Of a DNA stretch of 64,000 nucleotides, positions 4,081 through 64,000 are shown piece by piece. Position numbers and translations under genes: made by a program. Source of the DNA: Escherichia coli. GTDB lineage: Bacteria > Pseudomonadota > Gammaproteobacteria > Enterobacterales > Enterobacteriaceae. Where the stretch lies: the NCBI RefSeq assembly GCF_022846255.1, contig NZ_AP025682.1, one strand, 5' to 3'. The notes under the pieces were generated by a model, which did no database searches, was not told the origin of the DNA, and was given only the letters and a program-made list of their open reading frames with translations. Numbering within the stretch: position 1 is the first letter of the stretch; each line of letters opens with the position of its first letter.

Positions 4081-4114
<34 letters not shown>

Positions 4115-19815: not shown

Positions 19816-19840
19816 GTCATTTGTATTACGCGAAAATTAT

Positions 19841-20821: not shown

Positions 20822-20875
20822 GCGTTCATTAATTTGATTTATTCGCATCCATCAACGCTTTTAACTGCTCCGGCG
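20695..20875. repeat. Left copy of a diverged direct repeat (nanS 3' end plus downstream flank) bounding the defence island
   Basis: High similarity to 53494-53661 (shared tail ...ttcattaatttgatttatt[c/t]gcatccatcaacgcttttaactgctccggcg); the right copy lacks ~16 bp. Confidence 0.7.
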
Positions 20876-21660: not shown

Positions 21661-21794
21661 GAATCTCTGACGATCCTCACCATTGATATTTTCTTCATTC
21701 CTCACCAGAGAAATAAAAAATCACTATACTCATCAAAATATGAGATTACATTTATTCAGGCGATCACCTTACTATTTTATACGGAAAATAAATC

Positions 21795-22445
21795 ATGAAT
21801 ATCCGTCAATCATTACATGACCGAATCTATGCAGAATACCCTCAACAGGCTAAAGATATATTACTGTATTTCCCCACTTATGAAATTATGCCATCGACCA
21901 TAAAAATGGTTATGATTAATGAGGTGGTAGCTATAACACCGCAAGAAGATTTTTATACACCAGAGTCTGGTTATTTTACGACTGTCGCCCGACAGTTAGC
22001 GCTGGCTGGATTATCGGCAAGTAGTGGCGAAGTCTTACTCAACCATGGTATCTACCTGACCTCCGCACTGAAACTACCTAAAACACAGATCACAGCCACA
22101 CCCGCGGAGATCATTCTCTGGTCACCTATTGTAGAATGGGAGCTCGAACTCTTTGCCAATATAAAAGTTATTTTCGTTGGCGGCGATATCGCGCGAAAAT
22201 GCCTTAACATCATCGCGAAAAAGCAAACACGTAAACATGCCATCCCTTCAACTCCGACGTACAAACTGATGAATAGCGAATTAGTCTGGAAAGGAATAAG
22301 CATACTTCCTGGATATATTCTTACCGGAAAAAACCTGCTCATTGAAAAGTCAAAAATCGAAATGAATGTCGAACAATTAAGAAAAGGAATTGCGATTTAT
22401 CGCAATAGTAACAGTAACCATACGAATAATTCAGTTCATGAATAA
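21795..22445 (+). CDS. Hypothetical protein (216 aa), AT-rich orphan gene
   Basis: Intact ORF with AT-rich composition unlike its neighbours; no motif I can assign confidently. Confidence 0.45.
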   Translation: MNIRQSLHDRIYAEYPQQAKDILLYFPTYEIMPSTIKMVMINEVVAITPQEDFYTPESGYFTTVARQLALAGLSASSGEVLLNHGIYLTSALKLPKTQITATPAEIILWSPIVEWELELFANIKVIFVGGDIARKCLNIIAKKQTRKHAIPSTPTYKLMNSELVWKGISILPGYILTGKNLLIEKSKIEMNVEQLRKGIAIYRNSNSNHTNNSVHE

Positions 22446-36345: not shown

Positions 36346-36347
36346 GA

Positions 36348-49103: not shown

Positions 49104-49314
49104 CCTGCCTTCCTTTGATACAATTCGTAACAGGTTACTATCATCATAAAAAAGCTCAACCCGATGAACTCGCTAAAAATGAGACAAATCATTTATATCT
49201 CGAAAAAACTTGTTACAATCATGAGCGCTACACCGAACTTAACCATATAAATTATGTGTGTTTTGTTTATTTTTTAAACAATTACAACTATCCATTATTT
49301 ACACAGGTATCAAA

Positions 49315-50967
49315 ATGTTAGCGCAGCTTTTTGAGCAGTTGTTTCAATCGATAGACTCTACACTGATCACCAATATTTTCATCTGGGCTGTTATATTCGT
49401 ATTTTTATCAGCGTGGTGGTGTGACAAAAAAAATATACATAGTAAGTTTAGAGAATATGCTCCAACCTTAATGGGGGCATTAGGTATTCTGGGTACTTTC
49501 ATTGGTATTATTATTGGGTTACTCAATTTTAATACTGAAAGTATTGATACCAGCATCCCCGTATTATTAGGCGGCCTAAAAACAGCATTCATTACAAGCA
49601 TTGTAGGTATGTTTTTTGCCATTTTATTTAATGGAATGGATGCTTTCTTTTTTGCCAATAAACGAAGTGCGTTAGCAGAAAATAACCCTGAATCTGTTAC
49701 ACCTGAACATATCTATCATGAATTAAAAGAGCAGAACCAGACTCTGACTAAATTAGTCTCGGGTATTAACGGTGATAGTGAAGGTTCTCTTATTGCTCAA
49801 ATAAAATTACTACGTACTGAGATTAGCGATTCCTCGCAGGCACAATTAGCTAATCACACTCATTTCAGTAATAAGCTTTGGGAACAACTTGAACAATTTG
49901 CAGATCTAATGGCAAAAGGTGCTACAGAACAAATTATTGATGCTTTACGACAAGTCATTATTGATTTTAATGAAAATTTAACTGAACAGTTTGGTGAAAA
50001 CTTTAAAGCACTTGATGCCTCTGTAAAAAAACTTGTTGAGTGGCAGGAAAATTATAAAACGCAAGTTGAGCTGATGTCAGAACAATATCAACAAAGTGTC
50101 GAGTCTCTGGTTGAAACAAAAACTGCGGTTGCCGGGATTTGGGAAGAATGTAAAGAAATTCCTCTGGCTATGTCTGAACTGCGTGAAGTGCTTCAGGTGA
50201 ACCAACATCAAATCAGCGAACTCTCCCGCCATTTAGAAACCTTTGTCGCCATCCGCGATAAAGCTACAACCGTATTACCTGAAATACAGAACAAAATGGC
50301 TGAAGTGGGTGAACTGCTGAAATCCGGAGCTGCAAATGTTAGTGCATCTCTTGAGCAAACCAGCCAGCAAATACTTCTTAATGCAGATTCAATGCGCGTG
50401 GCCCTGGATGAAGGTACCGAAGGATTCAGACAATCGGTTACCCAAACACAACAAGCATTTGCCTCGATGGCACATGATGTCAGCAATTCCTCCGAAACTC
50501 TAACCAGCACGTTAGGTGAAACAATTACTGAAATGAAACAAAGTGGTGAAGAATTCCTGAAGTCACTAGAGTCGCACTCGAAAGAATTGCATAGAAATAT
50601 GGAACAAAATACGACTAATGTAATTGATATGTTCAGTAAGACTGGTGAAAAGATTAACCATCAACTATCCAGTAATGCCGATAATATGTTTGATTCAATC
50701 CAGACATCATTTGATAAGGCAAGTGCAGGGCTGACTTCTCAAGTCAGAGAATCAATTGAAAAATTTGCTCTATCCATCAACGAGCAGTTACATGCTTTTG
50801 AGCAAGCAACTGAACGTGAGATGAACCGTGAAATGCAATCATTAGGTAATGCTCTGCTTTCAATCAGCAAAGGTTTTGTCGGTAACTATGAAAAACTTAT
50901 TAAAGATTACCAAATAATTATGGGGCAGTTACAAGCATTAATTTCTGCTAATAAACATCGAGGGTAA
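49315..50967 (+). CDS. zorA: Zorya ZorA (MotA/ExbB-like proton-channel subunit with long coiled-coil tail), ~550 aa from MLAQLFEQ
   Basis: N-terminal transmembrane helices (IFIWAVIFVFLSAWW, LMGALGILGTFIGIIIGL, AFITSIVGMFFAILF) followed by ~400 aa of heptad-like, low-complexity helical sequence; zorB and zorE follow. Confidence 0.75.
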   Translation: MLAQLFEQLFQSIDSTLITNIFIWAVIFVFLSAWWCDKKNIHSKFREYAPTLMGALGILGTFIGIIIGLLNFNTESIDTSIPVLLGGLKTAFITSIVGMFFAILFNGMDAFFFANKRSALAENNPESVTPEHIYHELKEQNQTLTKLVSGINGDSEGSLIAQIKLLRTEISDSSQAQLANHTHFSNKLWEQLEQFADLMAKGATEQIIDALRQVIIDFNENLTEQFGENFKALDASVKKLVEWQENYKTQVELMSEQYQQSVESLVETKTAVAGIWEECKEIPLAMSELREVLQVNQHQISELSRHLETFVAIRDKATTVLPEIQNKMAEVGELLKSGAANVSASLEQTSQQILLNADSMRVALDEGTEGFRQSVTQTQQAFASMAHDVSNSSETLTSTLGETITEMKQSGEEFLKSLESHSKELHRNMEQNTTNVIDMFSKTGEKINHQLSSNADNMFDSIQTSFDKASAGLTSQVRESIEKFALSINEQLHAFEQATEREMNREMQSLGNALLSISKGFVGNYEKLIKDYQIIMGQLQALISANKHRG

Positions 50968-50973
50968 TCGATC

Positions 50974-51681
50974 ATGGATAAGATTATAGGGAAACAATTA
51001 CCTAAAAAAGATCAAGATAATGAACACTGGGTATCCATGTCAGACCTAATGGCAGGGCTGATGATGGTTTTTATGTTCATATCTATTGCTTATATGCACT
51101 ACGTACGTATTGAAAAAGAAAAAATTAAAGAAGTTGCCGTAGCCTACGAGAATGCTCAGTTACAGCTTTATAATGCTCTGGATATTGAGTTTGCAAAGGA
51201 TTTGCAAGACTGGGATGCAGAGATCGATAAGCAGACTCTGGAGGTTCGATTTAAATCACCGGATGTTTTATTTGGCTTAGGAAGCATAGAGCTTAAACCA
51301 AAGTTTAAACTCATTCTTGACGACTTCTTTCCTCGCTACCTAAAAGTTCTTGATAATTATCAAGAACATATTACTGAAGTCCGCATTGAAGGTCACACAA
51401 GTACTGACTGGACTGGAACAACGAATCCTGATATTGCTTATTTTAATAATATGGCACTATCACAAGGTCGTACACGTGCAGTATTACAATACGTTTATGA
51501 TATAAAAAATATCGCGACACACCAACAATGGGTTAAAAGTAAATTTGCCGCAGTAGGTTATTCATCTGCACATCCCATTCTTGATAAAACCGGCAAGGAG
51601 GATCCTAATCGCTCTCGTCGTGTCACCTTCAAAGTTGTAACAAATGCCGAGTTGCAGATTAGAAAGATTATTCAGGAGTAA
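50974..51681 (+). CDS. zorB: Zorya ZorB (MotB-like with OmpA-type peptidoglycan-binding domain), 235 aa
   Basis: Single N-terminal TM helix (LMAGLMMVFMFISIAYM) and OmpA/MotB-like C-terminal domain (RIEGHTSTDW..., ...LSQGRTRAV..., RRVTF). Confidence 0.8.
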   Translation: MDKIIGKQLPKKDQDNEHWVSMSDLMAGLMMVFMFISIAYMHYVRIEKEKIKEVAVAYENAQLQLYNALDIEFAKDLQDWDAEIDKQTLEVRFKSPDVLFGLGSIELKPKFKLILDDFFPRYLKVLDNYQEHITEVRIEGHTSTDWTGTTNPDIAYFNNMALSQGRTRAVLQYVYDIKNIATHQQWVKSKFAAVGYSSAHPILDKTGKEDPNRSRRVTFKVVTNAELQIRKIIQE

Positions 51682-51684
51682 GAG

Positions 51685-52788
51685 ATGAAATTATCTATCG
51701 ACATTTCAGAACTTATTCAATTAGGGAAGAAAATGTTACCAGAAGGAGTCGATTTTTTTCTGGATGAATCCCCTATTGACTTTGATCCTATAGATATTGA
51801 GTTATCCACGGGTAAAGAAGTTAGTATCGAAGATCTTGACCCTGGTAGCGGGCTTATCTCTTATCATGGCCGCCAGGTTCTTTTATATATTAGGGACCAT
51901 TCAGGGCGTTATGATGCGGCTATCATCGATGGCGAAAAAGGAAAACGTTTTCATATTGCCTGGTGCAGAACTCTTGATGAAATGCGCCATAAAAATCGAT
52001 TTGAAAGGTATCATGCAACTAACCGCATAGATGGTTTATTCGAAATTGATGATGGTTCAGGTCGGAGCCAGGATGTTGATTTACGGGTATGTATGAATTG
52101 TCTGGAACGACTTAATTACAAAGGAAGTATTGATAAACAAAGGAAAAGAGAGATTTTTAAATCATTCTCATTAAATGAGTTTTTTTCAGATTATAGTACC
52201 TGTTTTCGTCATATGCCTAAGGGTATCTATGACAAAACAAATAGTGGGTATGTCGAAAACTGGAAAGATATATCAAAATCAATACGAGAAAAGGCCAAGT
52301 ATACTTGTAATGATTGTGGTGTGAATTTATCAACCGCCAAAAACTTGTGCCATGTCCATCATAAAAATGGCATCAAATATGATAATCACCATGAAAACCT
52401 TCTTGTTCTGTGTAAGGATTGCCATCGTAAACAGCCCCTCCATGAAGGTATATTCGTTACCCAAGCTGAGATGGCTATCATTCAACGTTTACGTTCCCAA
52501 CAAGGGTTATTAAAAGCCGAATCCTGGAATGAAATATATGACCTGACTGATCCATCAGTACATGGTGATATTAATATGATGCAACATAAAGGCTTTCAAC
52601 CTCCTGTTCCTGGGTTAGATCTTCAAAACTCAGAACATGAAATTATTGCAACCGTAGAAGCAGCATGGCCAGGCCTTAAAATTGCAGTTAACCTTACTCC
52701 CGCCGAAGTCGAAGGATGGAGAATATATACCGTGGGTGAGCTGGTTAAAGAAATACAAACAGGAGCCTTTACGTCAGCAACGTTGTAA
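51685..52788 (+). CDS. zorE: Zorya type II ZorE (HNH endonuclease), 367 aa
   Basis: HNH signature CNDCG...HVHHKNG...NLLVLCKDCH; third gene directly after zorA/zorB. Confidence 0.75.
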   Translation: MKLSIDISELIQLGKKMLPEGVDFFLDESPIDFDPIDIELSTGKEVSIEDLDPGSGLISYHGRQVLLYIRDHSGRYDAAIIDGEKGKRFHIAWCRTLDEMRHKNRFERYHATNRIDGLFEIDDGSGRSQDVDLRVCMNCLERLNYKGSIDKQRKREIFKSFSLNEFFSDYSTCFRHMPKGIYDKTNSGYVENWKDISKSIREKAKYTCNDCGVNLSTAKNLCHVHHKNGIKYDNHHENLLVLCKDCHRKQPLHEGIFVTQAEMAIIQRLRSQQGLLKAESWNEIYDLTDPSVHGDINMMQHKGFQPPVPGLDLQNSEHEIIATVEAAWPGLKIAVNLTPAEVEGWRIYTVGELVKEIQTGAFTSATL

Positions 52789-52998: not shown

Positions 52999-53607
52999 AT
53001 GAATAAAGCAATAACGGTGCTTGCTATAATGATGGCTTCATTTTCCGTAAATGCGTATGTATTACCGGAAACGCCTGTGCCATTTAAAAGTGGTACCGGA
53101 GCAATTGATAACAACACTGTCTACATTGGTTTAGGTAGCGCAGGTACGGCATGGTACAAGCTGGAGAAACAGACCAAAGATAAAAAATGGACAGCGTTAG
53201 CTGCATTTCCTGGTGGACCGAGAGATCAAGCAACTTCTGCATTTATTGATGGCAATCTGTATGTGTTTGACGGCATTGGCAAAAACAGTGAGGGCTTGAC
53301 TCAGGTATTTAATGACGTTCACAAATACAACCTCAAAACCAATAGCTGGGTTAAATTGATGTCGCACGCGCCGATGGGCATGGCGGGTCATGTGACATTT
53401 GTACACAACGGCAAGGCTTATGTTACTGGCGGTGTTAACCAGAATATCTTCAATGGCTATTTTGAAGATCTTAACGAAGCTGGAAAAGATTCAACATACC
53501 GAACGCCGGAGAACTGGACGACGACACCACGAAGCAGTCATTTCAGTCGGGGGATGATTGTAGACAAATTTGTTGACGCTATTTTGCGGTTTTGGCGTGA
53601 AGGGTGA
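52999..53607 (+). pseudogene. Chimeric nanM'-'nanS remnant (first ~165 codons of a nanM homologue fused to the last ~37 codons of a nanS homologue)
   Basis: 52999-53493 aligns at roughly nine in ten bases (by eye) with nanM 18670-19166; 53494-53607 aligns with the nanS 3' end 20695-20821 minus a short deletion; a GGTATA-type motif lies ~95 bp upstream. Confidence 0.75.
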
Positions 53608-53661
53608 GCATTCATTAATTTGATTTATTTGCATCCATCAACGCTTTTAACTGCTCCGGCG
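53494..53661. repeat. Right copy of the diverged direct repeat bounding the island
   Basis: Matches 20695-20875 (see left copy); similarity ends at ...ctgctccggcg in both copies. Confidence 0.7.
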
Positions 53662-54193
53662 AAAACGGTGGTTTGCGTCGGTGCAACATCGCATGGCAAT
53701 TAGGGCACACAGGAAGCAAATCATTAACTGGATCCAGCTGGTAATTCTCTTTAATGGCTGAAAGCGGCACCAGGTGATGCACATGGATAAAGCCTTCAGC
53801 GATATCACCATAGATCTTCACCAGATCAACGCCGCATACGTTGCACTGGCATCCATGATGTTCGACCGCTTTATCTCGGGCCTTTTTATCGCGTTCATAG
53901 CGGTTTACTGTCACCTTTATCGCCGCACTTTCAACGTATGTCTCCTGCGACGGCAACTCATCCGGGAACAGAACGTCGGCTATGGGAGCCGCAGCGGCTT
54001 TATCCAGATGAATATGAAATCCCTGCTCTATGAGTAGCTTGAGACATTTAGATTTTATTCCGCCGGTGAAATCCGCAGGGGTAAATTGCGTCCCCGTCAT
54101 CAATGTCGCTGCGATGCCAGCAATCGCCTTCGAGGGGTAACGTCGGCCATGAATACAACCGCGCAGGCTGGAACTGATGAGTTTCTCCCGCAT
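53615..54193 (-). CDS. HNH endonuclease-domain protein (192-aa ORF; probably the 3' part of a frameshifted longer gene together with the overlapping ORF 54048-54254)
   Basis: HNH motif HGCQCNVCG...HVHHLVPLS...LLPVCPNCH; an overlapping upstream ORF in another frame (MNKLPDHLPRRYIIEAIHLWDAGE...) suggests a frameshift; its last ~15 codons are also present in the left repeat copy after nanS. Confidence 0.6.
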   Translation of the reverse strand: MREKLISSSLRGCIHGRRYPSKAIAGIAATLMTGTQFTPADFTGGIKSKCLKLLIEQGFHIHLDKAAAAPIADVLFPDELPSQETYVESAAIKVTVNRYERDKKARDKAVEHHGCQCNVCGVDLVKIYGDIAEGFIHVHHLVPLSAIKENYQLDPVNDLLPVCPNCHAMLHRRKPPFSPEQLKALMDANKSN

Positions 54194-54333
54194 CCCATAA
54201 ATGGATAGCTTCGATGATATACCGCCGCGGAAGATGATCGGGGAGTTTATTCATGGAGAATGTCCTTATACGTTCTCAGAACAGGCAGCAAAAAAACAAA
54301 TGAGATCAAGGTAATATATCTTCACTTGCAGGC

Positions 54334-55263
54334 TTGAACAGCAGAAAATTTGCGAGCATGATCGCAATTATTTCACTGCCAGGGATATCAATGGCTTCCA
54401 GTAAATCGCTACAGCAGGCAATTGCCAATATAAAAATCTGGCACAAGGGTGAACAGCGCGCGCCGCATAAGCCATTGTTATTGCTATATATATTAGCGGG
54501 ATACCTGAATGGACATCCGCGCCTTTTCGATTATGGCTCGGAAATCTACGAACCTCTGCACAGTTTACTGGAACGTTTTGGGCCACAGCGTTCACAGTAC
54601 CGACCTGATATGCCGTTCTGGCGATTACAAGGCGACGGATTCTGGCAATTACACAATGCCGAGCTTTGCTCAACAGCAGGGAGCAGCCGACAACCACCAG
54701 TGAAGGAACTGACTGAATACCACGTTGCAGGCGGTTTCGATGAACAGCACTACGCCCTGGTAACTGGCAATAAAAAACTCATCAATACTCTGGCGCAACA
54801 GATACTCGAAGCGCACTTCACCGAGAGTATTCAGGAAGAAATTGCTGACGAGCTGGGTTTTGATCTCCAGCAAATCCGTAAACAGCGCGACCCGTTATTT
54901 CGCAAAAATGTATTACGCGCTTATAACTACCAGTGCGCGATATGTGGCTTTAATATGCGCCACGACGACACCACCGTCGCGCTGGAAGCGGCGCATATAA
55001 AATGGAAACAGCACGGCGGTCCTTGTGAAATTCCTAATGGCCTGGCGCTTTGCGCAATTCACCATAAAGCCTTTGATAAAGGATCGATTGGCCTGGATGA
55101 AAATATGCGGGTACTGGTATCAGATGCGGTAAACGGCGGAGGGATCGTTGAGAAACTATTCTGGGATTTTGACGGGAAAACTATTGCTTTGCCGCAGGTA
55201 CGTAAAAATTACCCTTATGAGGGATTTGTGGAGTGGCATCGAAAAGAGGTTTTTAGGGGGTGA
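54334..55263 (+). CDS. HNH nuclease-domain protein with an uncharacterised N-terminal domain (309-aa ORF; start uncertain)
   Basis: C-terminal HNH-like motif YQCAICGF...EAAHIKWKQHGG...ALCAIHHKAFDKG; N-terminal ~180 aa has no motif I can name. Confidence 0.55.
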   Translation: MNSRKFASMIAIISLPGISMASSKSLQQAIANIKIWHKGEQRAPHKPLLLLYILAGYLNGHPRLFDYGSEIYEPLHSLLERFGPQRSQYRPDMPFWRLQGDGFWQLHNAELCSTAGSSRQPPVKELTEYHVAGGFDEQHYALVTGNKKLINTLAQQILEAHFTESIQEEIADELGFDLQQIRKQRDPLFRKNVLRAYNYQCAICGFNMRHDDTTVALEAAHIKWKQHGGPCEIPNGLALCAIHHKAFDKGSIGLDENMRVLVSDAVNGGGIVEKLFWDFDGKTIALPQVRKNYPYEGFVEWHRKEVFRG

Positions 55264-55373
55264 GGTTGATAATACCGCGCCCCTATAATCTTGCCATCTC
55301 GTGCATTGAGATGTTAAAAGCTACAAATGTTCTCCCTATTTTTCAATGTAGACATTTATAGCAATATCAAAAT

Positions 55374-56372
55374 TTATTGTTCAGCTTTTTCAACAACAAA
55401 ACCATTTTGCCGTACAAACTCAATCAAGAGTTCAATATTAACAATGCCCCATTGATTAGAAATAGCAACAATTTCACCAGAGGGAAGTGTAATCAACGCA
55501 TCTTCATTAATATGATAGCGACTTTTTTGCTTCTCTGGTATCTGATCGATAAGCATAACCGTACGTTTTTTAAAGTCATCACTTAATCCATTTATTAAAT
55601 CATTATAACTTGCAGGATTAAATTGTCTTATCCAATCACGTAATAATTCAAGCGCTAATTTACGTTTATTAAGTTCTTTATCTTTATATATATACCACGT
55701 ATAGTCCTTCTCTTTTTTCTGACTGCTAATTAGCTGTTCATCACGTTTTTCACGAAATTTAACTTGATATTCTTCCAATTCAGGAACCGGTATGATTTGC
55801 TCTGCATTGATTAGAACATCATCATTAAATCTATAAGGCGTCAGACGAACACATCGAATGTCTACCCCCTTATCTCTTAACCAAATCGCAGTGGTAGTCA
55901 GTTCCTTGCTAAAATCCGATGATGCCAAAACAATTCTGATATCTTTTCCGAAATCAACAAGCTCAGTTTCATCCAATTCAACAAATTCAAGTATTTTTTC
56001 TTTCGCATCGGCATCGCAGTTTTGTTTTTTCAAATACGTCTGGAAATATTCACATGCTTTCGCAAAACTCATTGTGGAAATCATCGCCGCATATCGTAGT
56101 GCCTGTAACTCCATATGCGCCCCCGTTTCATCACGTTTTAATTCGATAACCACTAAATTTGCCTGTTTATCGATTGCCAATAAATCAATTCGCCGACGGC
56201 TATCTTCCCAGTCAGAAAACTCTTCGGAAATCACCAGACAATCAGGAGCAATAATATCTATATTTTTTTTGATTGCTTCCTGTAAATCATAACGTTCCTG
56301 TAATCCTTCCAGAGTAAATGTCGTTTTTTCTAAAGCATGTAGTTCTTTATTTGCGATATTGTACAGCGCCAC
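55374..56372 (-). CDS. PD-(D/E)XK-superfamily nuclease-like protein (332 aa), function unknown
   Basis: Candidate PD-(D/E)XK motif RIDLLAIDKQANLVVIELKRDE in the N-terminal third; co-directional with jetD 126 bp upstream. Confidence 0.45.
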   Translation of the reverse strand: MALYNIANKELHALEKTTFTLEGLQERYDLQEAIKKNIDIIAPDCLVISEEFSDWEDSRRRIDLLAIDKQANLVVIELKRDETGAHMELQALRYAAMISTMSFAKACEYFQTYLKKQNCDADAKEKILEFVELDETELVDFGKDIRIVLASSDFSKELTTTAIWLRDKGVDIRCVRLTPYRFNDDVLINAEQIIPVPELEEYQVKFREKRDEQLISSQKKEKDYTWYIYKDKELNKRKLALELLRDWIRQFNPASYNDLINGLSDDFKKRTVMLIDQIPEKQKSRYHINEDALITLPSGEIVAISNQWGIVNIELLIEFVRQNGFVVEKAEQ

Positions 56373-56498
56373 GTTTATCTTCCTTTTTTAACTGATTTTA
56401 CAGGGACTTTAACACAGTAAAAATTTTATTTCCTGAGCTGTAATCGATTAAGCTGATGCATTCAATGGGAATGATATCACCTAAAAAGCACATTATGA

Positions 56499-57554
56499 CT
56501 ATATAAATAAACCTAAAGAAGCCACACCTTCTTGGGGTAGACGCTGGTGGATCGCCAGAAGAGTCTTCATTTCTCGTAAAACAAACTTTGGCATCCAGCC
56601 ACACTGTAACTCGAAATCAAACCGTTCGTTGTTGGCGTTCCCTTCCGCTGTCATCAGGCCATTTAAGATCAGTTTATTATAAAGCCATTCATCTAAATGC
56701 AAGCTGATACCGTAATCATTAAGCAACTTACAACGCAACTGATGAGCGATTTTTAAGCCCGCAACATCCAGATCGCCAAAATAAAGTAGTTGTTCTACCT
56801 GTTCGACCTCAAGGAGTTGTGACACGCACTCCGCCTGACCGGAAACTTTGTTACCTGCGCCATAAATGACCAGTGACCAGCGAGTCTGTGCTCGATTAAG
56901 TTGGCATAGCCGATAATACACATCGGAGTTTTCAACAATGATAGCCGGAAGATCATGGCAACGAGATGACTCATACGGTAAAGGCGGCGCACGTCGAAAC
57001 GCGCCCATATCAGCCAAAGTCAGAGTGACATGCTTCCAGCCATCAGGTGGCAAGGAGTCCAGAGCTTTTTCGTCACCAAATATAAGCAGAGACCGCTCAC
57101 GATGTCCAAGCAAGCCCGGGAATAGCGACTTGTCGCCCCCGGTTTGGCGAAAAAGATATGTATTCAGCTGTTGTAAGCGTGCCTTGATTGGCTGGGTAAG
57201 TTGTCCTGTAATACGTCGGGCCAACCAGGGATGCCAGGCTATTTCTGATGTTGTCTTCGTAGGAACGATGGCACCTTCGTAAACAAAAGTACTTGGCAGG
57301 CTCATACCCCGCCAGTAACGCTGCCAACTCGCTTTGTGCTTAGGTTGAGCCCGCCAGTCCCTTTCAAGCAGTTGCGTAACAGCCTGACTCAGCAAATCAG
57401 GCACCTCCTGGCTCAAGGCCTCTTGATTGTGTGCGCGTAATACCTCATCCAGCACCGCATTAGCTTTCACTGTACGCACGGCCTTACCAGCGGCAAGACG
57501 ATGTTTATTGGCTGTCGACTCCAGTCGGGATAGCCAGATCATTACGCTACTCAT
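56499..57554 (-). CDS. jetD: Wadjet JetD-like protein (Toprim-type nuclease subunit), 351 aa
   Basis: Candidate Toprim acidic motif (LLYFGDLDVAGLKIA) and position immediately after the SMC-like gene. Confidence 0.65.
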   Translation of the reverse strand: MSSVMIWLSRLESTANKHRLAAGKAVRTVKANAVLDEVLRAHNQEALSQEVPDLLSQAVTQLLERDWRAQPKHKASWQRYWRGMSLPSTFVYEGAIVPTKTTSEIAWHPWLARRITGQLTQPIKARLQQLNTYLFRQTGGDKSLFPGLLGHRERSLLIFGDEKALDSLPPDGWKHVTLTLADMGAFRRAPPLPYESSRCHDLPAIIVENSDVYYRLCQLNRAQTRWSLVIYGAGNKVSGQAECVSQLLEVEQVEQLLYFGDLDVAGLKIAHQLRCKLLNDYGISLHLDEWLYNKLILNGLMTAEGNANNERFDFELQCGWMPKFVLREMKTLLAIHQRLPQEGVASLGLFI

Positions 57555-57566
57555 CTCATATCAACC

Positions 57567-60500
57567 TTAAATGACTGGATCGAACTGTGGCTTAGCAGCC
57601 AGAGAAGCCGCCCACAGGGCATGGCGTTCTTTATCAACGGTTACCAAATCGCGCCGCCTCAGTTTTTGAACTTTATTCAGGAAGAGATGGTTATCAAACA
57701 TTGATTGGGCGTTTTCATCCGAAATACCAGTCAGGTAGATGAGCTGGATTTTATAGGCTTTGGCCATTTGGGTTTGAATGCGCATTAGATCATTGGCATT
57801 CGATTTACCCAGCGGGTTATCGGCTAACAAGAATCCTGCACTTGAAATACCCGTATCGTACTCTCGTACTTTACCAACCGTCACAAACAGTAAAAAGGCA
57901 GATGTAAGGCGCTGTCCACCCGAACCTTCAAGTCGGGTGACAGGAGTCCATTGTGGACGGCTGGCATTCGTCTTCAGCAAACGCACCTCCAGTTCCCCTT
58001 CGCCAAATACCGACTGAACCAAATCAGCTGTCAAGGCGTCCCGATTGGGCGCTCGGGGTATCTGTCCCCTGGCTATCCACTGCTGCAAGCGGCTGCTGGC
58101 AAAACCCCTGATATCAGCGGCAACATCATTCAACCGGTCGGTCATTTTAATAATGGGCCGACCAGGCAGTACGGGGCAATCCTCAGGAATTTTGACCGAC
58201 ATCGCGCGCCTGAGAAGCTTAATCGCCCCTTCCAGATGAGCAGTCAGATGGGTGACAGTCAGATCAATCGAACGTTGGAATTGCTCGAGGCTGTCCTGCA
58301 CAGCTTCGAATACCTGCGAGATCCCTGTACCGACCCTCTCCAAATCGCCCAGCACTTCATGATAAGTTGCGATTGAGTCCAACGGCCGTAAGTATTCCTG
58401 ACTGGCTCGGGCGTCTGGATCCTTGGCCAACTCTTCTTCGATGCGTTTGCGGAATTTTCCCCAGACCGTAGAGACGCGCATATTTTGCTGTTTTAGCGTT
58501 TCATTTAAACCGGCATACACTTGGCATTGTGCAGCCAGATCGTCAGCATATTCTGTGATGCTCAGGATCCTACCAGGTAGACCTGCGGCAGAGCTCGGCG
58601 TAATGGGCTGGATCATCGCTTGAGCTGTTTTGGCGTTCTGTAGCCGCTCTTTCACATTTTCAATCTTTCTCAACAGCAGTGTCTTTTGTTCCAGTAGGAA
58701 CTTGATCTGGTGTTCAATCGCATAAAGGTTATTGACGATTTCAGCCAGAGACGTTTGGATTGCCTCTATCTCAATGGGCTTCTCTTCCCAGACAAAATCC
58801 TCGTCAAGTGCTTTACTAGCCTCCTCACAGCTTTGGGAAAATTTTTGCAGAGTTACCTGAGAGCTAATTAGATTTTGCGTGAATTGCTTTTGCTGTTCTT
58901 TGAGGCGTACGATGCTGTTATTAATTACCGTTAGCTCATTGATGGCCGCAGCTTTTACCTCATCCGGATATGTATTGTAGGTGGGTTGAGCGGTCAAACG
59001 ATCAGAGGCGTAACGTTGTGCCTGTTCAGCATCTTTCAGTTGTTGCTTGAGAACGGTCACTTGATCACCGTTGGCTGCTTCGAGCAATTTTTTGTGCGCC
59101 TGAGCAGCCATCTCATGGGCATATTCAGGGCTTCGTCCTTCCATACCTTCAGTCGCCGTAATCTCTGAATAGAACGGTTCGTTACACAGATTACTCCAGC
59201 TACCTATCTGGATAATTAAAAGGGTTTTCTCGGAGCGTTTGTTCTTCTCGAGCTCGCTCAGCCGTTCCAGCCTCTCTCTCTGGGTGTAAAGAGTGTTCTT
59301 GCTTCGCTGAATCTGTGCAGCTAACTGCTCCAGTTTCATTATCGCCGTTTCACGCTTCGCCCATTCTTTTTCTACAAAAAGACTCACTTTATCATGTGCT
59401 TTTTCTGCCTGAATTTTCTGCTGTTGGGCGTTGTTTAAACGCACCTGGACATCTCTCTTCTCGTCACGCAGTGTTTGCTCATCATGCTCAGCTTGCTTAA
59501 GTGCTGCATCAGCATTTTCCAGTATTAATAGAGCCAGCTCCCGTTGGTCAAGCAGTCCCGCCCAATGCTTACCATACTGTTCGTAATGCCGACTCCAGTC
59601 ATTCCTGAAAGATTCCAGTACTTTAAGGGCGCTCTCCGCAGCCTTCACACTGACTTCCTGCGACGCTACGGTATTCTCCAGGTCTTGCAGCCGGGTTTCG
59701 TAAGCGGCCTGGCTATATCCGTGCTTATCGGGGTTTGAGAGGACAACCTGTACTAATTCAGACGTTTCTCGGCGGAGATCTTGTGCTTCATCCAGCAAGT
59801 AAATAGCAATAGGTGCCTTCTTCCAGGGTAGGATCTCACTAATTTTATGGACCTGTTCAAACGTTACATTGTCGAGTGCGACCAGGCTCAGGTAGCGGCC
59901 AGGGTTCTGATCGATCACCGCTGCAATCTTTTGTGCATCATCGTTGTGAGCAGAGGCCAAATAGTGTGGAAATGTCCATAGCTTATCCCGTGCAATGCCC
60001 GCAGCATAAAACGCTTCAAGTGCCTCATTGACCTGCTTAGCAACCAGTTCATGTCCCGTCACCCTCAACTCGTCCAGTTCGTGCCGGGCTTGCAGTAAAC
60101 GCTCTTTCATTCCATTCAGCGTTTGAGCGTTCGCATTCAATACTTTGTCGAGCTGCAATCCACACAGCTCGCTGTGCCAACTCGTGTCTTCAATATCCAG
60201 ATCATGTCGCGTTGACGATGGCAGTTTTTGATAGGTTTTTGCTAAAAGTAAGGCACTATCCACAGCTGACTGGTGTTTTTGTTTAGCCAGAATGAGTTTT
60301 TGCTGGGCCTCACTTTTCTCAATTGATGCCTCCCGCACAACATTCAGCTGTGCTTCCAGCGCCTGCTCTTTCTGATGAAGAATTGTATTAGCCAGTTCTT
60401 CACTCTGCTTTGCATCGCGTAAGGTTAATTCCAGTCGGTATTGGGCTGCTACTGGTGTTTCATCCTTCTGGATCAACCCAGCTTCACATAATTCATTCCG

Positions 60501-62003
60501 TTGCGATTCGCCCTGAAATTTGTCTCTTTTATATCCGTCACGCTCCGTTTCCAGACCACCCAACGTCTTTTGTAGTTTATCGTATGACTGTCTGAGGACA
60601 TGGCTTTCCCTGTCCATCTGCCCTAATTCTTCCTCAAGCGTAGCCTCCTGCTGGCGATGTCTGTCGATTGCCCACTCTAATGTGCCCAAGGCTTCGCCAG
60701 CAGTACGCTCGAAAATCACCTGTAGCGGCCTTTCCGTTTCACTTTGGAATACCTTCAGATCTTCATCTGCCTGGCGGTACTCATTCAGGGCCTTAGCATA
60801 GGCTTTGTAGTCTATAGCAGCGTGAGTAATCTCAATCTGGTGCTGATTGGTATCGGCTTCGTCTTGAAGCGCATCGACTATCGCTTTTTGTTTGTCGAAC
60901 TGATGCTGCACGAGATCATATTCAAGCAGTGCTCTGCGCTTACCTAACTGCTCACGCAGAGACATCGCCTGGCCAATATGTGTTTGCAAACTATCCATGT
61001 TATCTTCAAGCTGCGTCTGTTCAACCTGAGCATCCCCGACAAAGGCTGCGAGATCGCGCATTGCTTCTCGGAAGCCATCATCCAGCAGTTGCTGCTGTGC
61101 CTGGATGCTTTCCAGCTGTTTAGCCGGATCAAGAAACGCCAGCCAGTTAGCCAGCACATCCTTCAGGAAGGACTCGTTACGACGAATCCCCTCTAACTCT
61201 CCCTGACGCTCAACTTCATGCGCTACCAGTTCCCGCAGCCGCTCAGCCGCATCTTTAGACATGGTGCAGGCGAAGAACGCGCCAAGGAAATCATGTTCAG
61301 TTTTGTATTCGATAAAACGGGTCAGGCCACCTTCTTCGGAGTTGAAGGTCACCATTGTTTTGATAAGATCAACGTTAATTTGTTGTTCCAGTAAAAATGC
61401 GCGCCACTCGTTCTGTCTGGTGGTTTTACGCCAATGCATACCGCCTTCACTACCGGCCTTGAGATTAAGCCAGCTATCAAAACTGCGCAGGCTATTGGCA
61501 TAGGGGCGCAGCTCAGAATTGCGTTCCGCGCGGGAATAAGAAGGGACTTCATCAAACGGCGCGCCCATCAGGGAGTCGGGCGCATCACAAATAAACAGTG
61601 TCCGGTCAACATCATCTCCATTACGCTGATGAGCATGTCCTAGTAATAACGTTTGTCCTGATTCATTGACCATCTCAACCAAAACAACAGAGAGTTCTTT
61701 ATAGAAGTAATTGCGGTAGTGGTATTCACTCTGGCGATGATTTGCCAGATATTGGGTGAAGTCACTAACGGACGGCTCAAAAATCGATAACAGCAGCGCG
61801 ATGTAGGTCGACTTACCACCCCCATTCACAAGCTGCTGATAAGTACTGGTCACCACCTTCGCATTCCTGACGGGCGAGCGCAGACCTTCAACAACAGGGC
61901 TACTGACCGCTTGAGACAGGCCAATATAGTCCAGTGTGAGGTCCTTGTAGAAAGCTTCTTCATGGCCTGCACCATCCATATAAACCCGTTTAATCAGCCA
62001 CAT
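57567..62003 (-). CDS. jetC: Wadjet JetC-like SMC-family ABC ATPase (MksF/MukB-like), 1478 aa
   Basis: N-terminal Walker A (VNGGGKSTY), ~1000 aa of coiled-coil-like sequence, C-terminal ABC signature (LEGSGGQR) and Walker B-like (FLLADNP). Confidence 0.7.
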   Translation of the reverse strand: MWLIKRVYMDGAGHEEAFYKDLTLDYIGLSQAVSSPVVEGLRSPVRNAKVVTSTYQQLVNGGGKSTYIALLLSIFEPSVSDFTQYLANHRQSEYHYRNYFYKELSVVLVEMVNESGQTLLLGHAHQRNGDDVDRTLFICDAPDSLMGAPFDEVPSYSRAERNSELRPYANSLRSFDSWLNLKAGSEGGMHWRKTTRQNEWRAFLLEQQINVDLIKTMVTFNSEEGGLTRFIEYKTEHDFLGAFFACTMSKDAAERLRELVAHEVERQGELEGIRRNESFLKDVLANWLAFLDPAKQLESIQAQQQLLDDGFREAMRDLAAFVGDAQVEQTQLEDNMDSLQTHIGQAMSLREQLGKRRALLEYDLVQHQFDKQKAIVDALQDEADTNQHQIEITHAAIDYKAYAKALNEYRQADEDLKVFQSETERPLQVIFERTAGEALGTLEWAIDRHRQQEATLEEELGQMDRESHVLRQSYDKLQKTLGGLETERDGYKRDKFQGESQRNELCEAGLIQKDETPVAAQYRLELTLRDAKQSEELANTILHQKEQALEAQLNVVREASIEKSEAQQKLILAKQKHQSAVDSALLLAKTYQKLPSSTRHDLDIEDTSWHSELCGLQLDKVLNANAQTLNGMKERLLQARHELDELRVTGHELVAKQVNEALEAFYAAGIARDKLWTFPHYLASAHNDDAQKIAAVIDQNPGRYLSLVALDNVTFEQVHKISEILPWKKAPIAIYLLDEAQDLRRETSELVQVVLSNPDKHGYSQAAYETRLQDLENTVASQEVSVKAAESALKVLESFRNDWSRHYEQYGKHWAGLLDQRELALLILENADAALKQAEHDEQTLRDEKRDVQVRLNNAQQQKIQAEKAHDKVSLFVEKEWAKRETAIMKLEQLAAQIQRSKNTLYTQRERLERLSELEKNKRSEKTLLIIQIGSWSNLCNEPFYSEITATEGMEGRSPEYAHEMAAQAHKKLLEAANGDQVTVLKQQLKDAEQAQRYASDRLTAQPTYNTYPDEVKAAAINELTVINNSIVRLKEQQKQFTQNLISSQVTLQKFSQSCEEASKALDEDFVWEEKPIEIEAIQTSLAEIVNNLYAIEHQIKFLLEQKTLLLRKIENVKERLQNAKTAQAMIQPITPSSAAGLPGRILSITEYADDLAAQCQVYAGLNETLKQQNMRVSTVWGKFRKRIEEELAKDPDARASQEYLRPLDSIATYHEVLGDLERVGTGISQVFEAVQDSLEQFQRSIDLTVTHLTAHLEGAIKLLRRAMSVKIPEDCPVLPGRPIIKMTDRLNDVAADIRGFASSRLQQWIARGQIPRAPNRDALTADLVQSVFGEGELEVRLLKTNASRPQWTPVTRLEGSGGQRLTSAFLLFVTVGKVREYDTGISSAGFLLADNPLGKSNANDLMRIQTQMAKAYKIQLIYLTGISDENAQSMFDNHLFLNKVQKLRRRDLVTVDKERHALWAASLAAKPQFDPVI

Positions 62004-62005
62004 AC

Positions 62006-62902
62006 TTAAATCTCCGTCAAGCGTTGCGTTTCTGTGGTTCCAGTTGTAACTGGACGTTCATTGAGCGAAGGAAACTCCAGGGTATCTGCTAATGCTGCAA
62101 GATCGCTTTCAGCTAAATCGGACGACCGTTCTTCTACGGCTGGACTGATGCTCATGACAAAGCGCACCGTCTCTTCGATGCCAGTATGGCGCAGATAATG
62201 TTTGAGTTTTTGGGTCGGATACCAGTCGGACTCTCCCGACAAACTGCTGTCTTCGGCCAGAAAGCCTTCCTCCTGCAGCAGTTGTATCCAGCGCGTTGCC
62301 ATTTCTGTTTGCGAGCGAATACTTGAGACACGCCCTACCTTTTCGTCGTGAATACGGGGAATACGTTCTTCCTGCACAAACCTGGCCGCCATAAGTAGGC
62401 CATCTACGGTATCGTCACCCTCGGCCTTGCGCTGGGCAATCACCTGGTCGGCAACATTATTGAGCCTGGCTACCACCGAGGCTGCATTAATGGCGTTACT
62501 CTGACCGAACTCGACACGAACGGTGTCTGGAGTTGGAAACAAATCAGCCAGCAACGCAATCAGAGTTAAGCCTGCAAACAGGCGCTGTTCTTTCCGTTCC
62601 TTACCCTGTTGCTCAGCCATTGTTTCAGGTAGCAAGCGTTTGTTCAGCCAACCCAAAGATGGGGAAAACGGACCTCGGCCATCTGCAGCCAGTAATACCC
62701 CGTAGGTCTCATGAATCCCGAGATACCGCAATTTCATACCTGTCGCGACGCCACGGATAATCTCTGTGAACAGGGCATCACCTTGCAGATCAAGAGCACG
62801 TTGAATCAGCTCATCCCCCATTTTATATCCCAGTGAATTCATAATTGCCTGCGTGGCAATCTCGGCGTAGCGTTTAGTTTGTTGATGCGCGTTGTCGTAC
62901 AT
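62006..62902 (-). CDS. jetB: Wadjet JetB-like (MksE-like) subunit, 298 aa
   Basis: Acidic ~300-aa protein between the jetA-like and SMC-like genes; assignment by synteny and size. Confidence 0.55.
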   Translation of the reverse strand: MYDNAHQQTKRYAEIATQAIMNSLGYKMGDELIQRALDLQGDALFTEIIRGVATGMKLRYLGIHETYGVLLAADGRGPFSPSLGWLNKRLLPETMAEQQGKERKEQRLFAGLTLIALLADLFPTPDTVRVEFGQSNAINAASVVARLNNVADQVIAQRKAEGDDTVDGLLMAARFVQEERIPRIHDEKVGRVSSIRSQTEMATRWIQLLQEEGFLAEDSSLSGESDWYPTQKLKHYLRHTGIEETVRFVMSISPAVEERSSDLAESDLAALADTLEFPSLNERPVTTGTTETQRLTEI

Positions 62903-62904
62903 AA

Positions 62905-64000
62905 CTACTCCTCAAAGGGGTATAAGGGAGCAACCGTTAACAGTTTGATATTGTTAGCCCGCCAGAGCGTTGTTTCGATAGCGCCGTCTATCTCCACTTC
63001 TATTGCGGGATCGCTGTTAGCTGCCAGGCTGCCAATATGGAGTAAACAAACCTGTTGCTCTTGTTCGGATAATTCTTCGCCCTCATAGGCGTCAAAAACA
63101 TCTCTAAAGCTCACATGCCCCCAATTCTTCAATCGGTCACTAACCCAATCGCTGCATTTTTTAATGACAGATTCAGGGATACCTCGCAGGTTGGTTTCAA
63201 TAGCTACAGGCTGATCGGTGAGGTCCTGTATCTCATGTGGAAGCGCCTGTTCAAATCTATCGAGATAAAGGTTCAGCAGCGCCTCAAGGTCAAACAGAAT
63301 GTGCCGATCATCATCCTGTCTTCGGGGAGCCAACAGGCGTGCGGTGAGATCATCGATTTCCTTTTCGACAGTGTCGGGGGAATGAGACAGCAAGGGCTTG
63401 AGTGCACCTTTTTCCAGTGTTTCCCGAAAGAGGGTATTATCTCTGGGAATAATGAGTTTCAGACGAGCTCGCTCAAAATCTTTATTCACATCCAGTAAGC
63501 AGTCTTGATAGCGCTGCGTAAAAGCGCAGACCTCAGCAAAAATCTCCTGTGCTCTACGTAGCTTATTTAATTTGTCGGGATTTAATTTCGAAATTCCTTC
63601 AACCAGCATTTCGGTAATGGCCGACATTGAGTTCTGGATATGTTCCAAAACCTCTCGGGTTTTATCAAAGGAATCATTGAGTACGGGACGGATATCGTGT
63701 GCATAAGATGCACTCAAATCACCAGACTGGGCGGCACGCACTTTCATCCGCATTCCAATCAGATATTGCTCCAGTTGCCGCTGTGTTGATTGGATTTGGT
63801 GTACTGCCTTGTCGATCTCTCCGCGACGGATCGTTTTAAGCGTGCGCCAGGCCAGAATCGCAGCGCGTTCTATCGGCGTTTCATCCAAGCGCAGGGTATA
63901 GAACAACATTCCTTCATCAGTCAGCGACCAGAGAATATCATCTGAGCCGGATAGCTGGTCATAGCGTACCAGACGGACTATCTGCTCTTCGGAATGCGTT
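62905..64000 (-). CDS. jetA: Wadjet JetA-like (MksB-like) subunit, partial; N-terminus lies beyond the window end
   Basis: Reading frame stays open from 62905 to the window edge (the track ORF starts at an internal Met at 63909); 2-bp gap to jetB. Confidence 0.55.
   Translation of the reverse strand, partial: THSEEQIVRLVRYDQLSGSDDILWSLTDEGMLFYTLRLDETPIERAAILAWRTLKTIRRGEIDKAVHQIQSTQRQLEQYLIGMRMKVRAAQSGDLSASYAHDIRPVLNDSFDKTREVLEHIQNSMSAITEMLVEGISKLNPDKLNKLRRAQEIFAEVCAFTQRYQDCLLDVNKDFERARLKLIIPRDNTLFRETLEKGALKPLLSHSPDTVEKEIDDLTARLLAPRRQDDDRHILFDLEALLNLYLDRFEQALPHEIQDLTDQPVAIETNLRGIPESVIKKCSDWVSDRLKNWGHVSFRDVFDAYEGEELSEQEQQVCLLHIGSLAANSDPAIEVEIDGAIETTLWRANNIKLLTVAPLYPFEE

What the first reader, a model, noticed from the sequence alone, without database searches (positions are those of the whole stretch)
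56499..64000. Wadjet-like jetABCD cluster (jetA truncated by the window) next to the other systems
An SMC-like ATPase (Walker A VNGGGKST, long coiled coil, SGGQ signature) followed by a Toprim-like JetD and preceded by two smaller subunits is the Wadjet/MksBEFG layout. With the island this places at least four defence systems within ~43 kb.
Basis: partly seen in the sequence, partly recalled or inferred. Interest (0 to 1): 0.4.

Follow-up and report, generated by a model that had tools for sequence, protein, structure and literature searches.

The report
Type III Wadjet anti-plasmid operon
This is a normal, intact copy of a known bacterial anti-plasmid system (Wadjet type III, jetABCD) in an E. 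coli defence island; its one unusual feature is that the motor protein, like all its relatives, lacks the glutamate that such ATPases normally use to split ATP.

Summary
The observation and the interpretation both hold. On the minus strand, 56499-64000 carries a tightly packed operon. It holds jetA (cut by the window end; codons 125-488 of 488), jetB (298 aa), jetC (1478 aa) and jetD (351 aa).

PADLOC profiles assign A, C and D to Wadjet type III over their full length. JetD carries the Toprim E...DxD residues and matches the solved MksG nuclease. A predicted JetC head is closest to the MukB and JetC heads. JetB hits no library, but it is homologous to the JetB-position proteins of distant type III operons and is predicted as two winged-helix modules.

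The window is E. coli chromosome. 64 of 5426 complete genomes carry the whole cluster, and the genes are under purifying selection. The neighbours are the published ARMADA II, Druantia III and Zorya II island, so "at least four systems" is right.

The system is therefore already known, although type III has not been studied biochemically. One feature deserves attention: every JetC3 relative examined has D-N-P at the Walker B motif instead of D-E. Mutating that glutamate kills type I Wadjet.

The parts
62905..64000 (-). jetA, 3' three quarters (codons 125-488 of a 488-aa JetA3; presumed kleisin). The first 124 codons lie beyond the window.
   Evidence: The frame is open to 63999. PADLOC JetA3 PDLC00564 matches at E=2.7e-252 over profile positions 125-488. 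The full 488-aa gene is present in E. coli PD23 at L001:18506-19972. Neither the single protein nor a family profile hits Pfam, NCBIfam or PDB.
62006..62902 (-). jetB (298 aa; presumed KITE subunit with two winged-helix modules and a disordered C-terminal tail from about residue 253)
57567..62003 (-). jetC (1478 aa; SMC-type ATPase with split head, long coiled-coil arms and a central hinge-like segment)
   Evidence: PADLOC JetC3 PDLC00587 matches positions 1-1478 of 1478 at 3370 bits. The AF2 model of the fused head (pLDDT 74.6, pTM 0.79) is closest to the MukB head 3euk (E=1e-10), then P. aeruginosa JetC 8dk3 and E. coli JetC 8as8, ahead of cohesin and Rad50. No sequence-level hit to any solved SMC was found.
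61809..61826 (-). JetC Walker A core, NGGGKS (residues 60-65)
   Evidence: The residues are invariant in alignment A1 and in all 80 full-length homologues. They align with the MukB GNGAGKS motif.
61326..61343 (-). JetC NSEEGG (residues 221-226); invariant N221, E224 and G225. This may be the Q-loop equivalent, which is inference only.
   Evidence: The columns are invariant in A1 and A2. The N..EG pattern occurs in 149 of 150 family representatives. MukB has LYGGIS in a comparable place.
57912..57923 (-). JetC signature motif SGGQ (residues 1361-1364)
   Evidence: S1361 and G1363 are invariant. The motif begins helix 370-392 of the head model.
57813..57830 (-). JetC Walker B, LLADNP (residues 1392-1397): Asp1395 is followed by Asn1396, not Glu
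   Evidence: D1395, N1396, P1397 and G1399 are invariant. The Asp ends beta strand 399-403 of the head model. MukB has LLFLDEAARLD at the matching place. D-N-P occurs in 80 of 80 homologues and 147 of 150 representatives, and none has hhhhDE.
56499..57554 (-). jetD (351 aa from the first ATG; RefSeq and the PADLOC profile start at Met5, base 57542); Toprim nuclease subunit
   Evidence: PADLOC JetD3 PDLC00593 matches at E=6e-244. Pfam JetD_C PF09983 scores 37 bits against a cutoff of 22. The family profile hits C. glutamicum MksG 8b7f at E=4.5e-4 over the Toprim core.
56724..56945 (-). JetD Toprim core (residues 204-277), with invariant E208 (56931-56933) and D261-x-D263 (56766-56774)
   Evidence: Alignment A6 has E208, N209, D261, D263 and G266 invariant. 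These align with MksG 'VENLD' and 'GDLDLDG'. They correspond to E248, D290 and D292 of type I JetD (10.1101/2022.10.04.510915).

Best explanation
The region is an intact type III Wadjet (JetABCD, also called MksBEFG) operon. It belongs to a mobile cassette (brxR plus jetABCD) in an E. coli chromosomal defence island.

Shown here:
- The gene order and the type III identity of JetA, JetC and JetD.
- The MukB/JetC-like fold predicted for the JetC head.
- The Toprim catalytic residues of JetD.
- Purifying selection on all four genes.

Inferred by analogy with type I and type II Wadjet: JetA (kleisin), JetB (KITE) and JetC (SMC) form a dimeric DNA-loading complex that scans DNA. When the complex has passed all the way round a small circular DNA, it recruits JetD, which cuts the DNA, so plasmids are destroyed and the chromosome is spared. 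A BrxR-type WYL repressor just beyond the window probably sets expression.

One step cannot simply be carried over. The JetC3 family has Asn instead of the Walker B catalytic Glu. ATP turnover therefore either uses another residue (candidate: the invariant Glu224) or is slow.
For: - PADLOC assigns JetA3, JetC3 and JetD3 over their full length.
- Pfam JetD_C scores above its cutoff.
- The JetD profile matches the solved MksG nuclease over the Toprim core, with E208 and D261xD263 invariant.
- The predicted JetC head is closest to the MukB, P. aeruginosa JetC and E. coli JetC heads.
- JetB is homologous to the JetB3-position proteins of distant operons and has a tandem winged-helix prediction.
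- The A-B-C-D order is conserved in 9 of 10 distant loci and in 3 close ones.
- dN/dS between two E. coli alleles is 0.12-0.28 for the four genes.
- The cluster is patchy (64 of 5426 E. coli genomes), lies in a defence island or in ICEs, and has brxR upstream.
- Literature: Wadjet I and II cleave circular DNA in an ATP- and JetD-dependent way, and type III is expected to do the same (10.1101/2022.10.04.510915; 10.1101/2025.03.10.642339).
Against: - No activity of any type III system was tested here, and the literature calls types II and III 'largely uncharacterized'.
- JetC3 lacks the Walker B Glu. In type I, changing that Glu to Gln abolishes both ATP hydrolysis and DNA cleavage (10.1101/2022.10.04.510915).
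- No sequence-level link to MukBEF or to type I or II subunits could be found for A, B or C.
- The JetB model has low confidence (pLDDT 64) and its fold matches are not significant.
- The JetA fold was not tested.
Confidence: 0.9

Rival explanations
1. It is Wadjet type III, but it does not work as a processive loop-extruding motor. Without the Walker B Glu, JetC3 would bind ATP and engage its heads as a slow clamp or switch, like the natural E-to-Q LmuB of Lamassu. Target recognition would then rest on something other than complete extrusion of a DNA circle.
For: - D-N-P replaces D-E in every JetC3 relative examined: 24 of 24 aligned, 80 of 80 homologues and 147 of 150 representatives.
- The motif register is supported by the head model and by the real MukB sequence.
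- An engineered E-to-Q change kills type I activity (10.1101/2022.10.04.510915).
- LmuB is a natural precedent for low turnover (PMC10586767).
Against: - Strict conservation of Walker A, the signature motif, the Walker B Asp and an extra invariant Glu224 fits an active site that still turns over.
- Some SMC-like ATPases without Glu at this position are reported to be active (DndD-type 'DTPLG'; this is from my own knowledge and was not checked here).
- Type III keeps MukB-length arms, which suggests a DNA-entrapping ring.
Confidence: 0.25
2. It is a MukBEF/MksBEF-type chromosome-organising condensin rather than a defence system.
For: - JetC3 has almost the same length as MukB (1478 vs 1486 aa) and a similar motif layout, and the MukB head is the best fold match.
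- One relative, in Amycolatopsis marina, has A-B-C without D and lies among housekeeping genes.
Against: - A JetD Toprim gene is part of the operon, with intact catalytic residues.
- Only 64 of 5426 E. coli genomes carry the cluster.
- E. coli has its own mukFEB elsewhere.
- The cluster sits in a defence island or in ICEs with a BrxR regulator.
- Several strains carry IS-disrupted or truncated copies.
Confidence: 0.03
3. It is an inactive remnant of a Wadjet system.
For: - Truncated copies (jetD plus about two thirds of jetC) and copies with IS66, IS3 or IS100 insertions exist in other E. coli strains.
- A Salmonella plasmid copy has frameshifts in jetC and jetD.
Against: - In this window jetB, jetC and jetD are intact, and jetA is open up to the window edge.
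- All catalytic motifs are kept.
- dN/dS is 0.12-0.28 against a 97.5%-identical allele.
Confidence: 0.04
4. The large ATPase is an SbcC/Rad50/RecN-type repair protein that merely happens to lie next to a Toprim gene.
For: Rad50 and SbcC heads appear further down the fold-search list.
Against: - The best matches are MukB and JetC heads, by three orders of magnitude in E-value.
- No SbcD/Mre11 partner is present.
- The four-gene order is conserved across phyla.
- PADLOC assigns JetC3.
Confidence: 0.01

Closest known systems
Wadjet type III (JetABCD-III; Doron et al. 2018 classification, PADLOC JetA3/B3/C3/D3)
   Same: The operon order is the same. The PADLOC JetA3, JetC3 and JetD3 profiles match over their full length. 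JetC is long (about 1480 aa), which fits the published remark that Wadjet-III tends to have longer coiled coils (10.1101/2025.03.17.643644).
   Different: Nothing essential differs. This gammaproteobacterial clade's JetB is not recognised by the PADLOC v2 JetB3 profiles. It also carries a divergent brxR.
Wadjet type I (E. coli GF4-3 and P. aeruginosa PA14 JetABCD; C. glutamicum MksBEFG)
   Same: It has four subunits and an SMC head of the MukB/JetC fold class. JetD has the Toprim E...DxD residues. The function is presumed to be cleavage of circular DNA.
   Different: A, B and C show no detectable sequence similarity. JetC3 is about 400 aa longer. Walker B is D-N-P rather than D-E. The JetD N-terminal domain differs: only the Toprim core aligns, and PADLOC JetD1 hits reach only E about 5e-9 over residues 204-283.
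MukBEF (E. coli chromosome condensin)
   Same: The order is kleisin, KITE, SMC. MukB and JetC3 have nearly the same length and the same motif spacing, and the MukB head is the best structural match to the JetC3 head model.
   Different: MukBEF has no nuclease subunit, is present in every E. coli as a housekeeping system, and has Walker B LDE. hhalign finds nothing beyond Walker A.
Lamassu LmuB (SMC/Rad50-like defence ATPase)
   Same: It is a defence-system SMC-like ATPase in which the Walker B Glu is naturally replaced, by Gln in LmuB (PMC10586767).
   Different: LmuB is about 650 aa with short coiled coils. It has different partners (LmuA and LmuC), no Toprim JetD, and a different operon.

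Membership tests
Wadjet (JetABCD/MksBEFG) | Four co-directional genes in the order kleisin-like A, KITE-like B, SMC-like C, Toprim D | tested here: met
   The gaps between genes are 2, 2 and 12 nt. The same order is found in distant loci L004-L009, L014 and L015 and in close loci L010-L012.
Wadjet (JetABCD/MksBEFG) | JetD with a Toprim domain carrying the conserved Glu and the DxD motif | tested here: met
   Pfam JetD_C scores 37.1 bits against a cutoff of 22. E208, D261 and D263 are invariant. The profile aligns these residues to MksG 8b7f at E=4.5e-4.
Wadjet (JetABCD/MksBEFG) | JetC is an SMC-type ABC ATPase: a split head of the MukB/JetC class, long coiled coils and a hinge | tested here: met
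   The head model is closest to MukB 3euk (E=1e-10) and to JetC 8dk3 and 8as8. The middle region matches only coiled-coil proteins and is poor in Pro/Gly. The hinge fold itself was not modelled.
Wadjet (JetABCD/MksBEFG) | Canonical Walker B hhhhDE with a catalytic Glu, which type I needs for ATPase and cleavage | tested here: not met
   The motif is LLADNP, with Asn1396 at the Glu position. The same holds across the whole JetC3 family. This is a feature of type III as a group. It does not single out this locus, and it is not part of the family's formal definition.
Wadjet (JetABCD/MksBEFG) | JetB is a KITE protein (tandem winged-helix domains) | tested here: inconclusive
Wadjet (JetABCD/MksBEFG) | JetA is a kleisin that bridges the SMC head and neck | not tested
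The sequence profile finds nothing in PDB or Pfam. Only the PADLOC JetA3 label and the gene's position support this role.
Wadjet (JetABCD/MksBEFG) | Reduces plasmid transformation or cleaves circular DNA | not testable with these tools
   This needs an experiment.
Wadjet type III specifically | Best profile matches are to the type III A, C and D families rather than to type I or II | tested here: met
   JetA3 matches at E=2.7e-252, JetC3 at E=0 and JetD3 at E=6e-244. No JetC1, JetC2, JetA1 or JetA2 hits appear at E<=0.01, and JetD1 and JetD2 match only weakly.
Wadjet type III specifically | JetB3 profile match | tested here: not met
   The window protein gives no PADLOC hit even at E<=10. The link is indirect: two positional homologues hit JetB3 (best E=7.1e-5), and hhalign between the two clades gives 97.5% probability.
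MukBEF / MksBEF condensin | Three-gene system without a nuclease; housekeeping distribution | tested here: not met
   JetD is present. Only 64 of 5426 E. coli genomes carry the cluster. mukFEB is a separate locus. hhalign against MukF, MukE and MukB finds nothing significant.
SbcCD / Rad50-Mre11 / RecN | Rad50-class head with an Mre11/SbcD partner, or a stand-alone RecN | tested here: not met
   Rad50 and SbcC heads rank below MukB and JetC. No phosphoesterase partner is encoded nearby.

The most novel reading that the evidence does not exclude
Type III Wadjet as a whole (at least 936 protein clusters at E<=1e-30) runs on an SMC whose Walker B catalytic Glu is replaced by an invariant Asn within D-N-P-[ILF]-G. 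An invariant Glu sits in an N-x-x-E-G loop of the N-terminal head half.

Either the catalytic carboxylate has moved to a different loop, which would be a rearranged ABC/SMC active site, or type III recognises plasmids with very slow ATP turnover. The second case would contradict the assumption that all Wadjet types share the type I extrusion-cleavage cycle.

I found no mention of this in the held literature.
Probability: 0.3. Interest if true: 0.55.

Novelty: already known. Interest (0 to 1): 0.25.

Why it matters
As a locus it matters little. It adds one more annotated example of a known anti-plasmid system next to a published E. coli defence island.

It has some practical use. Strains carrying it may be hard to transform with small plasmids. 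RefSeq names only JetD, NCBIfam has no models for A to D, and PADLOC v2 misses this clade's JetB. Automated annotation may therefore under-call the system.

The wider point concerns type III Wadjet, which has not been characterised biochemically. The family-wide loss of the Walker B glutamate gives a direct, cheap test of whether the type I loop-extrusion and cleavage mechanism really applies to all Wadjet types. An E. coli-native type III operon is a convenient system for that test.

Tried and rejected
1. Single-sequence searches of all four proteins against PDB sequences found nothing relevant.
2. A full-length JetC3 profile against PDB was swamped by coiled-coil proteins such as myosin and lamin. 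A head-only profile found only Walker-A-level ABC hits with E>0.1.
3. hhalign of the JetA3, JetB3 and JetC3 family profiles against single E. coli MukF, MukE and MukB sequences gave nothing beyond the Walker A stretch.
4. NCBIfam returned no family for A to D. Pfam returned none for A, B or C.
5. The third word-indexed homologue search, run with the head alignment, returned mainly fragments and was wasted.
6. The promoter and terminator scan of 55200-64000 gave counts equal to shuffled sequence and was uninformative.
7. I considered whether the PD-(D/E)XK gene (55374-56372) downstream of jetD belongs to the operon. I rejected this because it is absent next to jetD in Aeromonas, Pectobacterium, Advenella and all distant loci.
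8. I considered a MukBEF-like housekeeping role and rejected it (see the rival explanations).
9. The Doron et al. 2018 paper is not in the held library. I therefore could not check whether the experimentally tested type III system also has D-N-P.


Full report
**What is there**

The minus strand of 56499-64000 carries four tightly packed ORFs:
- 62905 to the window end. The listed ORF starts at an internal ATG at 63909, but the frame stays open to 63999.
- 62006-62902 (298 aa).
- 57567-62003 (1478 aa).
- 56499-57554 (351 aa).

The gaps between genes are 2, 2 and 12 nt, which fits one operon.

**Identity of the proteins**

PADLOC profiles match three of the four proteins end to end:
- JetC3 PDLC00587: positions 1-1478 of 1478, 3370 bits.
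- JetD3 PDLC00593: E=6e-244.
- JetA3 PDLC00564: E=2.7e-252, starting at profile position 125 of 488.

The JetA3 start position shows that the window cuts off the first 124 codons of jetA.

No type I or II JetA or JetC profile matches. JetD1 and JetD2 match only weakly, over the Toprim core. Pfam recognises only JetD (JetD_C, 37 bits against a cutoff of 22). NCBIfam recognises none of the four.

**JetD**

An alignment with the JetD proteins of six distant operons has E208-N209 and D261-x-D263 invariant. Its profile hits the solved C. glutamicum MksG nuclease (8b7f, E=4.5e-4). 'vENs' and 'YfGDlDlaGL' align on 'VENLD' and 'YWGDLDLDGF'. These are the Toprim metal-binding residues, E248, D290 and D292 in type I JetD (10.1101/2022.10.04.510915).

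**JetC**

Neither the protein nor family profiles find any solved SMC by sequence. I therefore fused the two head halves (residues 1-262 and 1255-1478) and predicted the structure from a 14-sequence alignment. The model has pLDDT 74.6 and pTM 0.79.

Foldseek places it closest to the MukB head (3euk, E=1e-10, TM 0.53/0.56). Next come the P. aeruginosa JetC head (8dk3) and E. coli JetC (8as8), ahead of cohesin, Rad50 and SbcC.

The middle of the protein is Pro/Gly-poor and matches only coiled-coil proteins. At 1478 aa it is almost the length of MukB (1486 aa). This fits the published remark that Wadjet-III tends to have long coiled coils (10.1101/2025.03.17.643644).

**JetB**

The 298-aa protein hits nothing in PADLOC (even at E<=10), Pfam, NCBIfam or PDB. 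Its detectable homologues are all at least 72% identical and come from gammaproteobacteria.

I took the genes in the JetB position of seven distant JetC3 loci and compared them with this clade:
- hhalign between the two groups gives 97.5% probability, E=6.5e-12.
- Two of the distant proteins hit PADLOC JetB3.
- The AF2 model (pLDDT 64) has two helix-helix-strand-strand modules and a disordered tail.
- Foldseek finds nothing significant, but ScpB, MukE and E. coli JetB are among its top seven.

The KITE assignment is therefore likely but not proven.

**JetA**

JetA rests on the PADLOC label and its position in the operon.

**Context**

The window is E. coli chromosome and is collinear with strain PD23. 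From left to right it holds:
- The uxu, gntP, fim and nan genes.
- The OI-172-type defence island (10.1101/2025.09.22.677730). This comprises ARMADA II armDCBA (22959-39206), Druantia III (39430-49103) and Zorya II (49258-52788).
- A nanM fragment, an HNH gene, an SBD-HNH nuclease and a PDC-S11 PD-(D/E)XK nuclease.
- jetDCBA.

Beyond the window, PD23 has the rest of jetA, a divergent BrxR-family WYL regulator, and integrase and transposase remnants.

In strain C11 the block from the HNH fragment to brxR lies directly next to truncated nanS, with no OI-172 genes between them. The two blocks are therefore separate modules.

**Distribution**

- 94 of 5426 complete E. coli genomes hold some part of the cluster, and 64 hold all of it.
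- A group of genomes keeps only jetD plus about two thirds of jetC.
- Several carry IS66, IS3 or IS100 insertions.
- In Aeromonas and Pectobacterium the same brxR-jetABCD cassette sits in integrative conjugative elements.
- dN/dS between the window and the C11 allele is 0.12-0.28 for the four genes.

**How it probably works**

Type I Wadjet cleaves circular DNA in a reaction that needs ATP hydrolysis by JetC and the Toprim residues of JetD (10.1101/2022.10.04.510915). Type II behaves alike, and type III is expected to (10.1101/2025.03.10.642339). The same paper states that types II and III are 'largely uncharacterized'. Applying this mechanism here is inference.

**The one unusual feature**

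The JetC3 Walker B motif is GFLLADNPLGKSN. Asp1395 ends the beta strand that follows the signature helix in the model. Asn1396 occupies the place of the catalytic Glu; MukB has LLFLDEAARLD there.

D-N-P-[ILFV]-G is widespread in the family:
- It is invariant in a 24-sequence alignment that spans proteins only 14-17% identical to the window protein.
- It is present in 80 of 80 full-length homologues.
- It is present in 147 of the 150 best representatives from an exhaustive search. That search counts 936 clusters at E<=1e-30. None of the 150 has hhhhDE.

An N-x-x-E-G loop in the N-terminal half (Glu224) is equally conserved.

In type I, an engineered E-to-Q change abolishes ATPase and cleavage. 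Lamassu LmuB is a natural E-to-Q case thought to turn over slowly (PMC10586767). Whether Glu224 substitutes for the missing Glu, or whether type III is a slow clamp, cannot be decided here.

I found no mention of this feature in the held literature. That is absence of evidence only.

**Verdict**

The finding is correct and the system is already known. This clade is in PADLOC, and RefSeq annotates its JetD as a Wadjet protein. Interest as a locus is low. The Walker B observation applies to the whole type III family and is the only part worth following up.

Noticed in passing
window 57813-57830 (JetC residues 1392-1397) and 61326-61343 (residues 221-226): The JetC3 family has D-N-P-[ILFV]-G instead of the Walker B D-E: 80 of 80 homologues and 147 of 150 representatives. 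It also has an invariant Glu in an N-x-x-E-G loop of the N-terminal head half. Walker A lacks its first Gly (LVNGGGKS).
   Followed up: yes
window 62006-62902: This clade's JetB is invisible to the PADLOC v2 JetB3 profiles, Pfam and NCBIfam. RefSeq calls JetA, JetB and JetC 'hypothetical' or 'coiled-coil domain-containing'. Automated tools may report the system as incomplete.
   Followed up: yes
window 62006-62140 (JetB residues ~253-298): JetB has a roughly 45-residue predicted disordered C-terminal tail. Its sequence varies within the gammaproteobacterial clade, except for a conserved end (T292...E297-I/V). It may be a short docking motif, by analogy with the type I JetB motif that binds JetD. 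This is speculation.
   Followed up: no
window 22959-52788: This is the published OI-172-type island: ARMADA II (armDCBA, 22959-39206), Druantia III (39430-49103) and Zorya II (49258-52788). PADLOC v2 has no ARMADA models and shows only GajB-, DruE-, IIG-MTase- and DrmD-like hits. 512 of 5426 E. coli genomes hold at least 80% of window 20000-44999.
   Followed up: partly
window 52999-56372: Between Zorya and Wadjet lie four genes. They are a nanM fragment (52999-53607), an HNH endonuclease (53615-54193, minus strand) and an SBD-HNH 'phosphorothioated DNA-binding restriction endonuclease' (54334-55263). The fourth is a NucS/Cas4-like PD-(D/E)XK protein that matches PADLOC candidate PDC-S11 (55374-56372, E=9e-114). 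The last one is not conserved next to jetD in other taxa.
   Followed up: partly
L001:19973-20147 and 20148-21041 (E. coli PD23, just beyond window base 64000): A divergent BrxR-family WYL regulator lies upstream of jetA. The intergenic region holds a perfect 12-nt inverted repeat, AATCAAGCAAAG-TTT-CTTTGCTTGATT (L001:20018-20044). Its core is conserved in Aeromonas and Pectobacterium. On the jetA-sense strand it is followed by conserved TACTATAGT and GGAGG. This is probably the operator and promoter of jetA. The BrxR-Wadjet association is already published.
   Followed up: partly
L003:3524-10488 (Amycolatopsis marina): JetA3-, JetB3- and JetC3-like genes occur here without jetD, between whiA and gap-pgk-tpi. 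This may be a nuclease-free, domesticated relative. Kitasatospora (L014) and Pseudonocardia (L015) relatives do have jetD.
   Followed up: partly
L017:2630-10400 (Salmonella IncFIB plasmid pRM11065-2, 132.6 kb): A plasmid-borne copy of the same cassette (JetC 79% identical) has frame changes inside both jetC (near residue 950) and jetD (near residue 112). This suggests an inactivated copy. Sequencing error was not excluded.
   Followed up: partly
E. coli genomes H34, H39, H47, H49-H55 and H1, H5, H6: Several strains carry IS66, IS3 or IS100 insertions in the cluster. A recurrent truncated form keeps only jetD plus about 3.2 kb of jetC (query 1-4300).
   Followed up: no
window 57542-57554: The jetD start is ambiguous. 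The first ATG is at 57554 (351 aa), while RefSeq and the PADLOC profile start at Met5 (57542, 347 aa).
   Followed up: partly
window 19814-22445: The left edge of the island holds a truncated sialate O-acetylesterase (nanS), a frameshifted transposase (about 20944-21625) and a uracil-DNA glycosylase family gene (21795-22445) that has no PADLOC hit.
   Followed up: no
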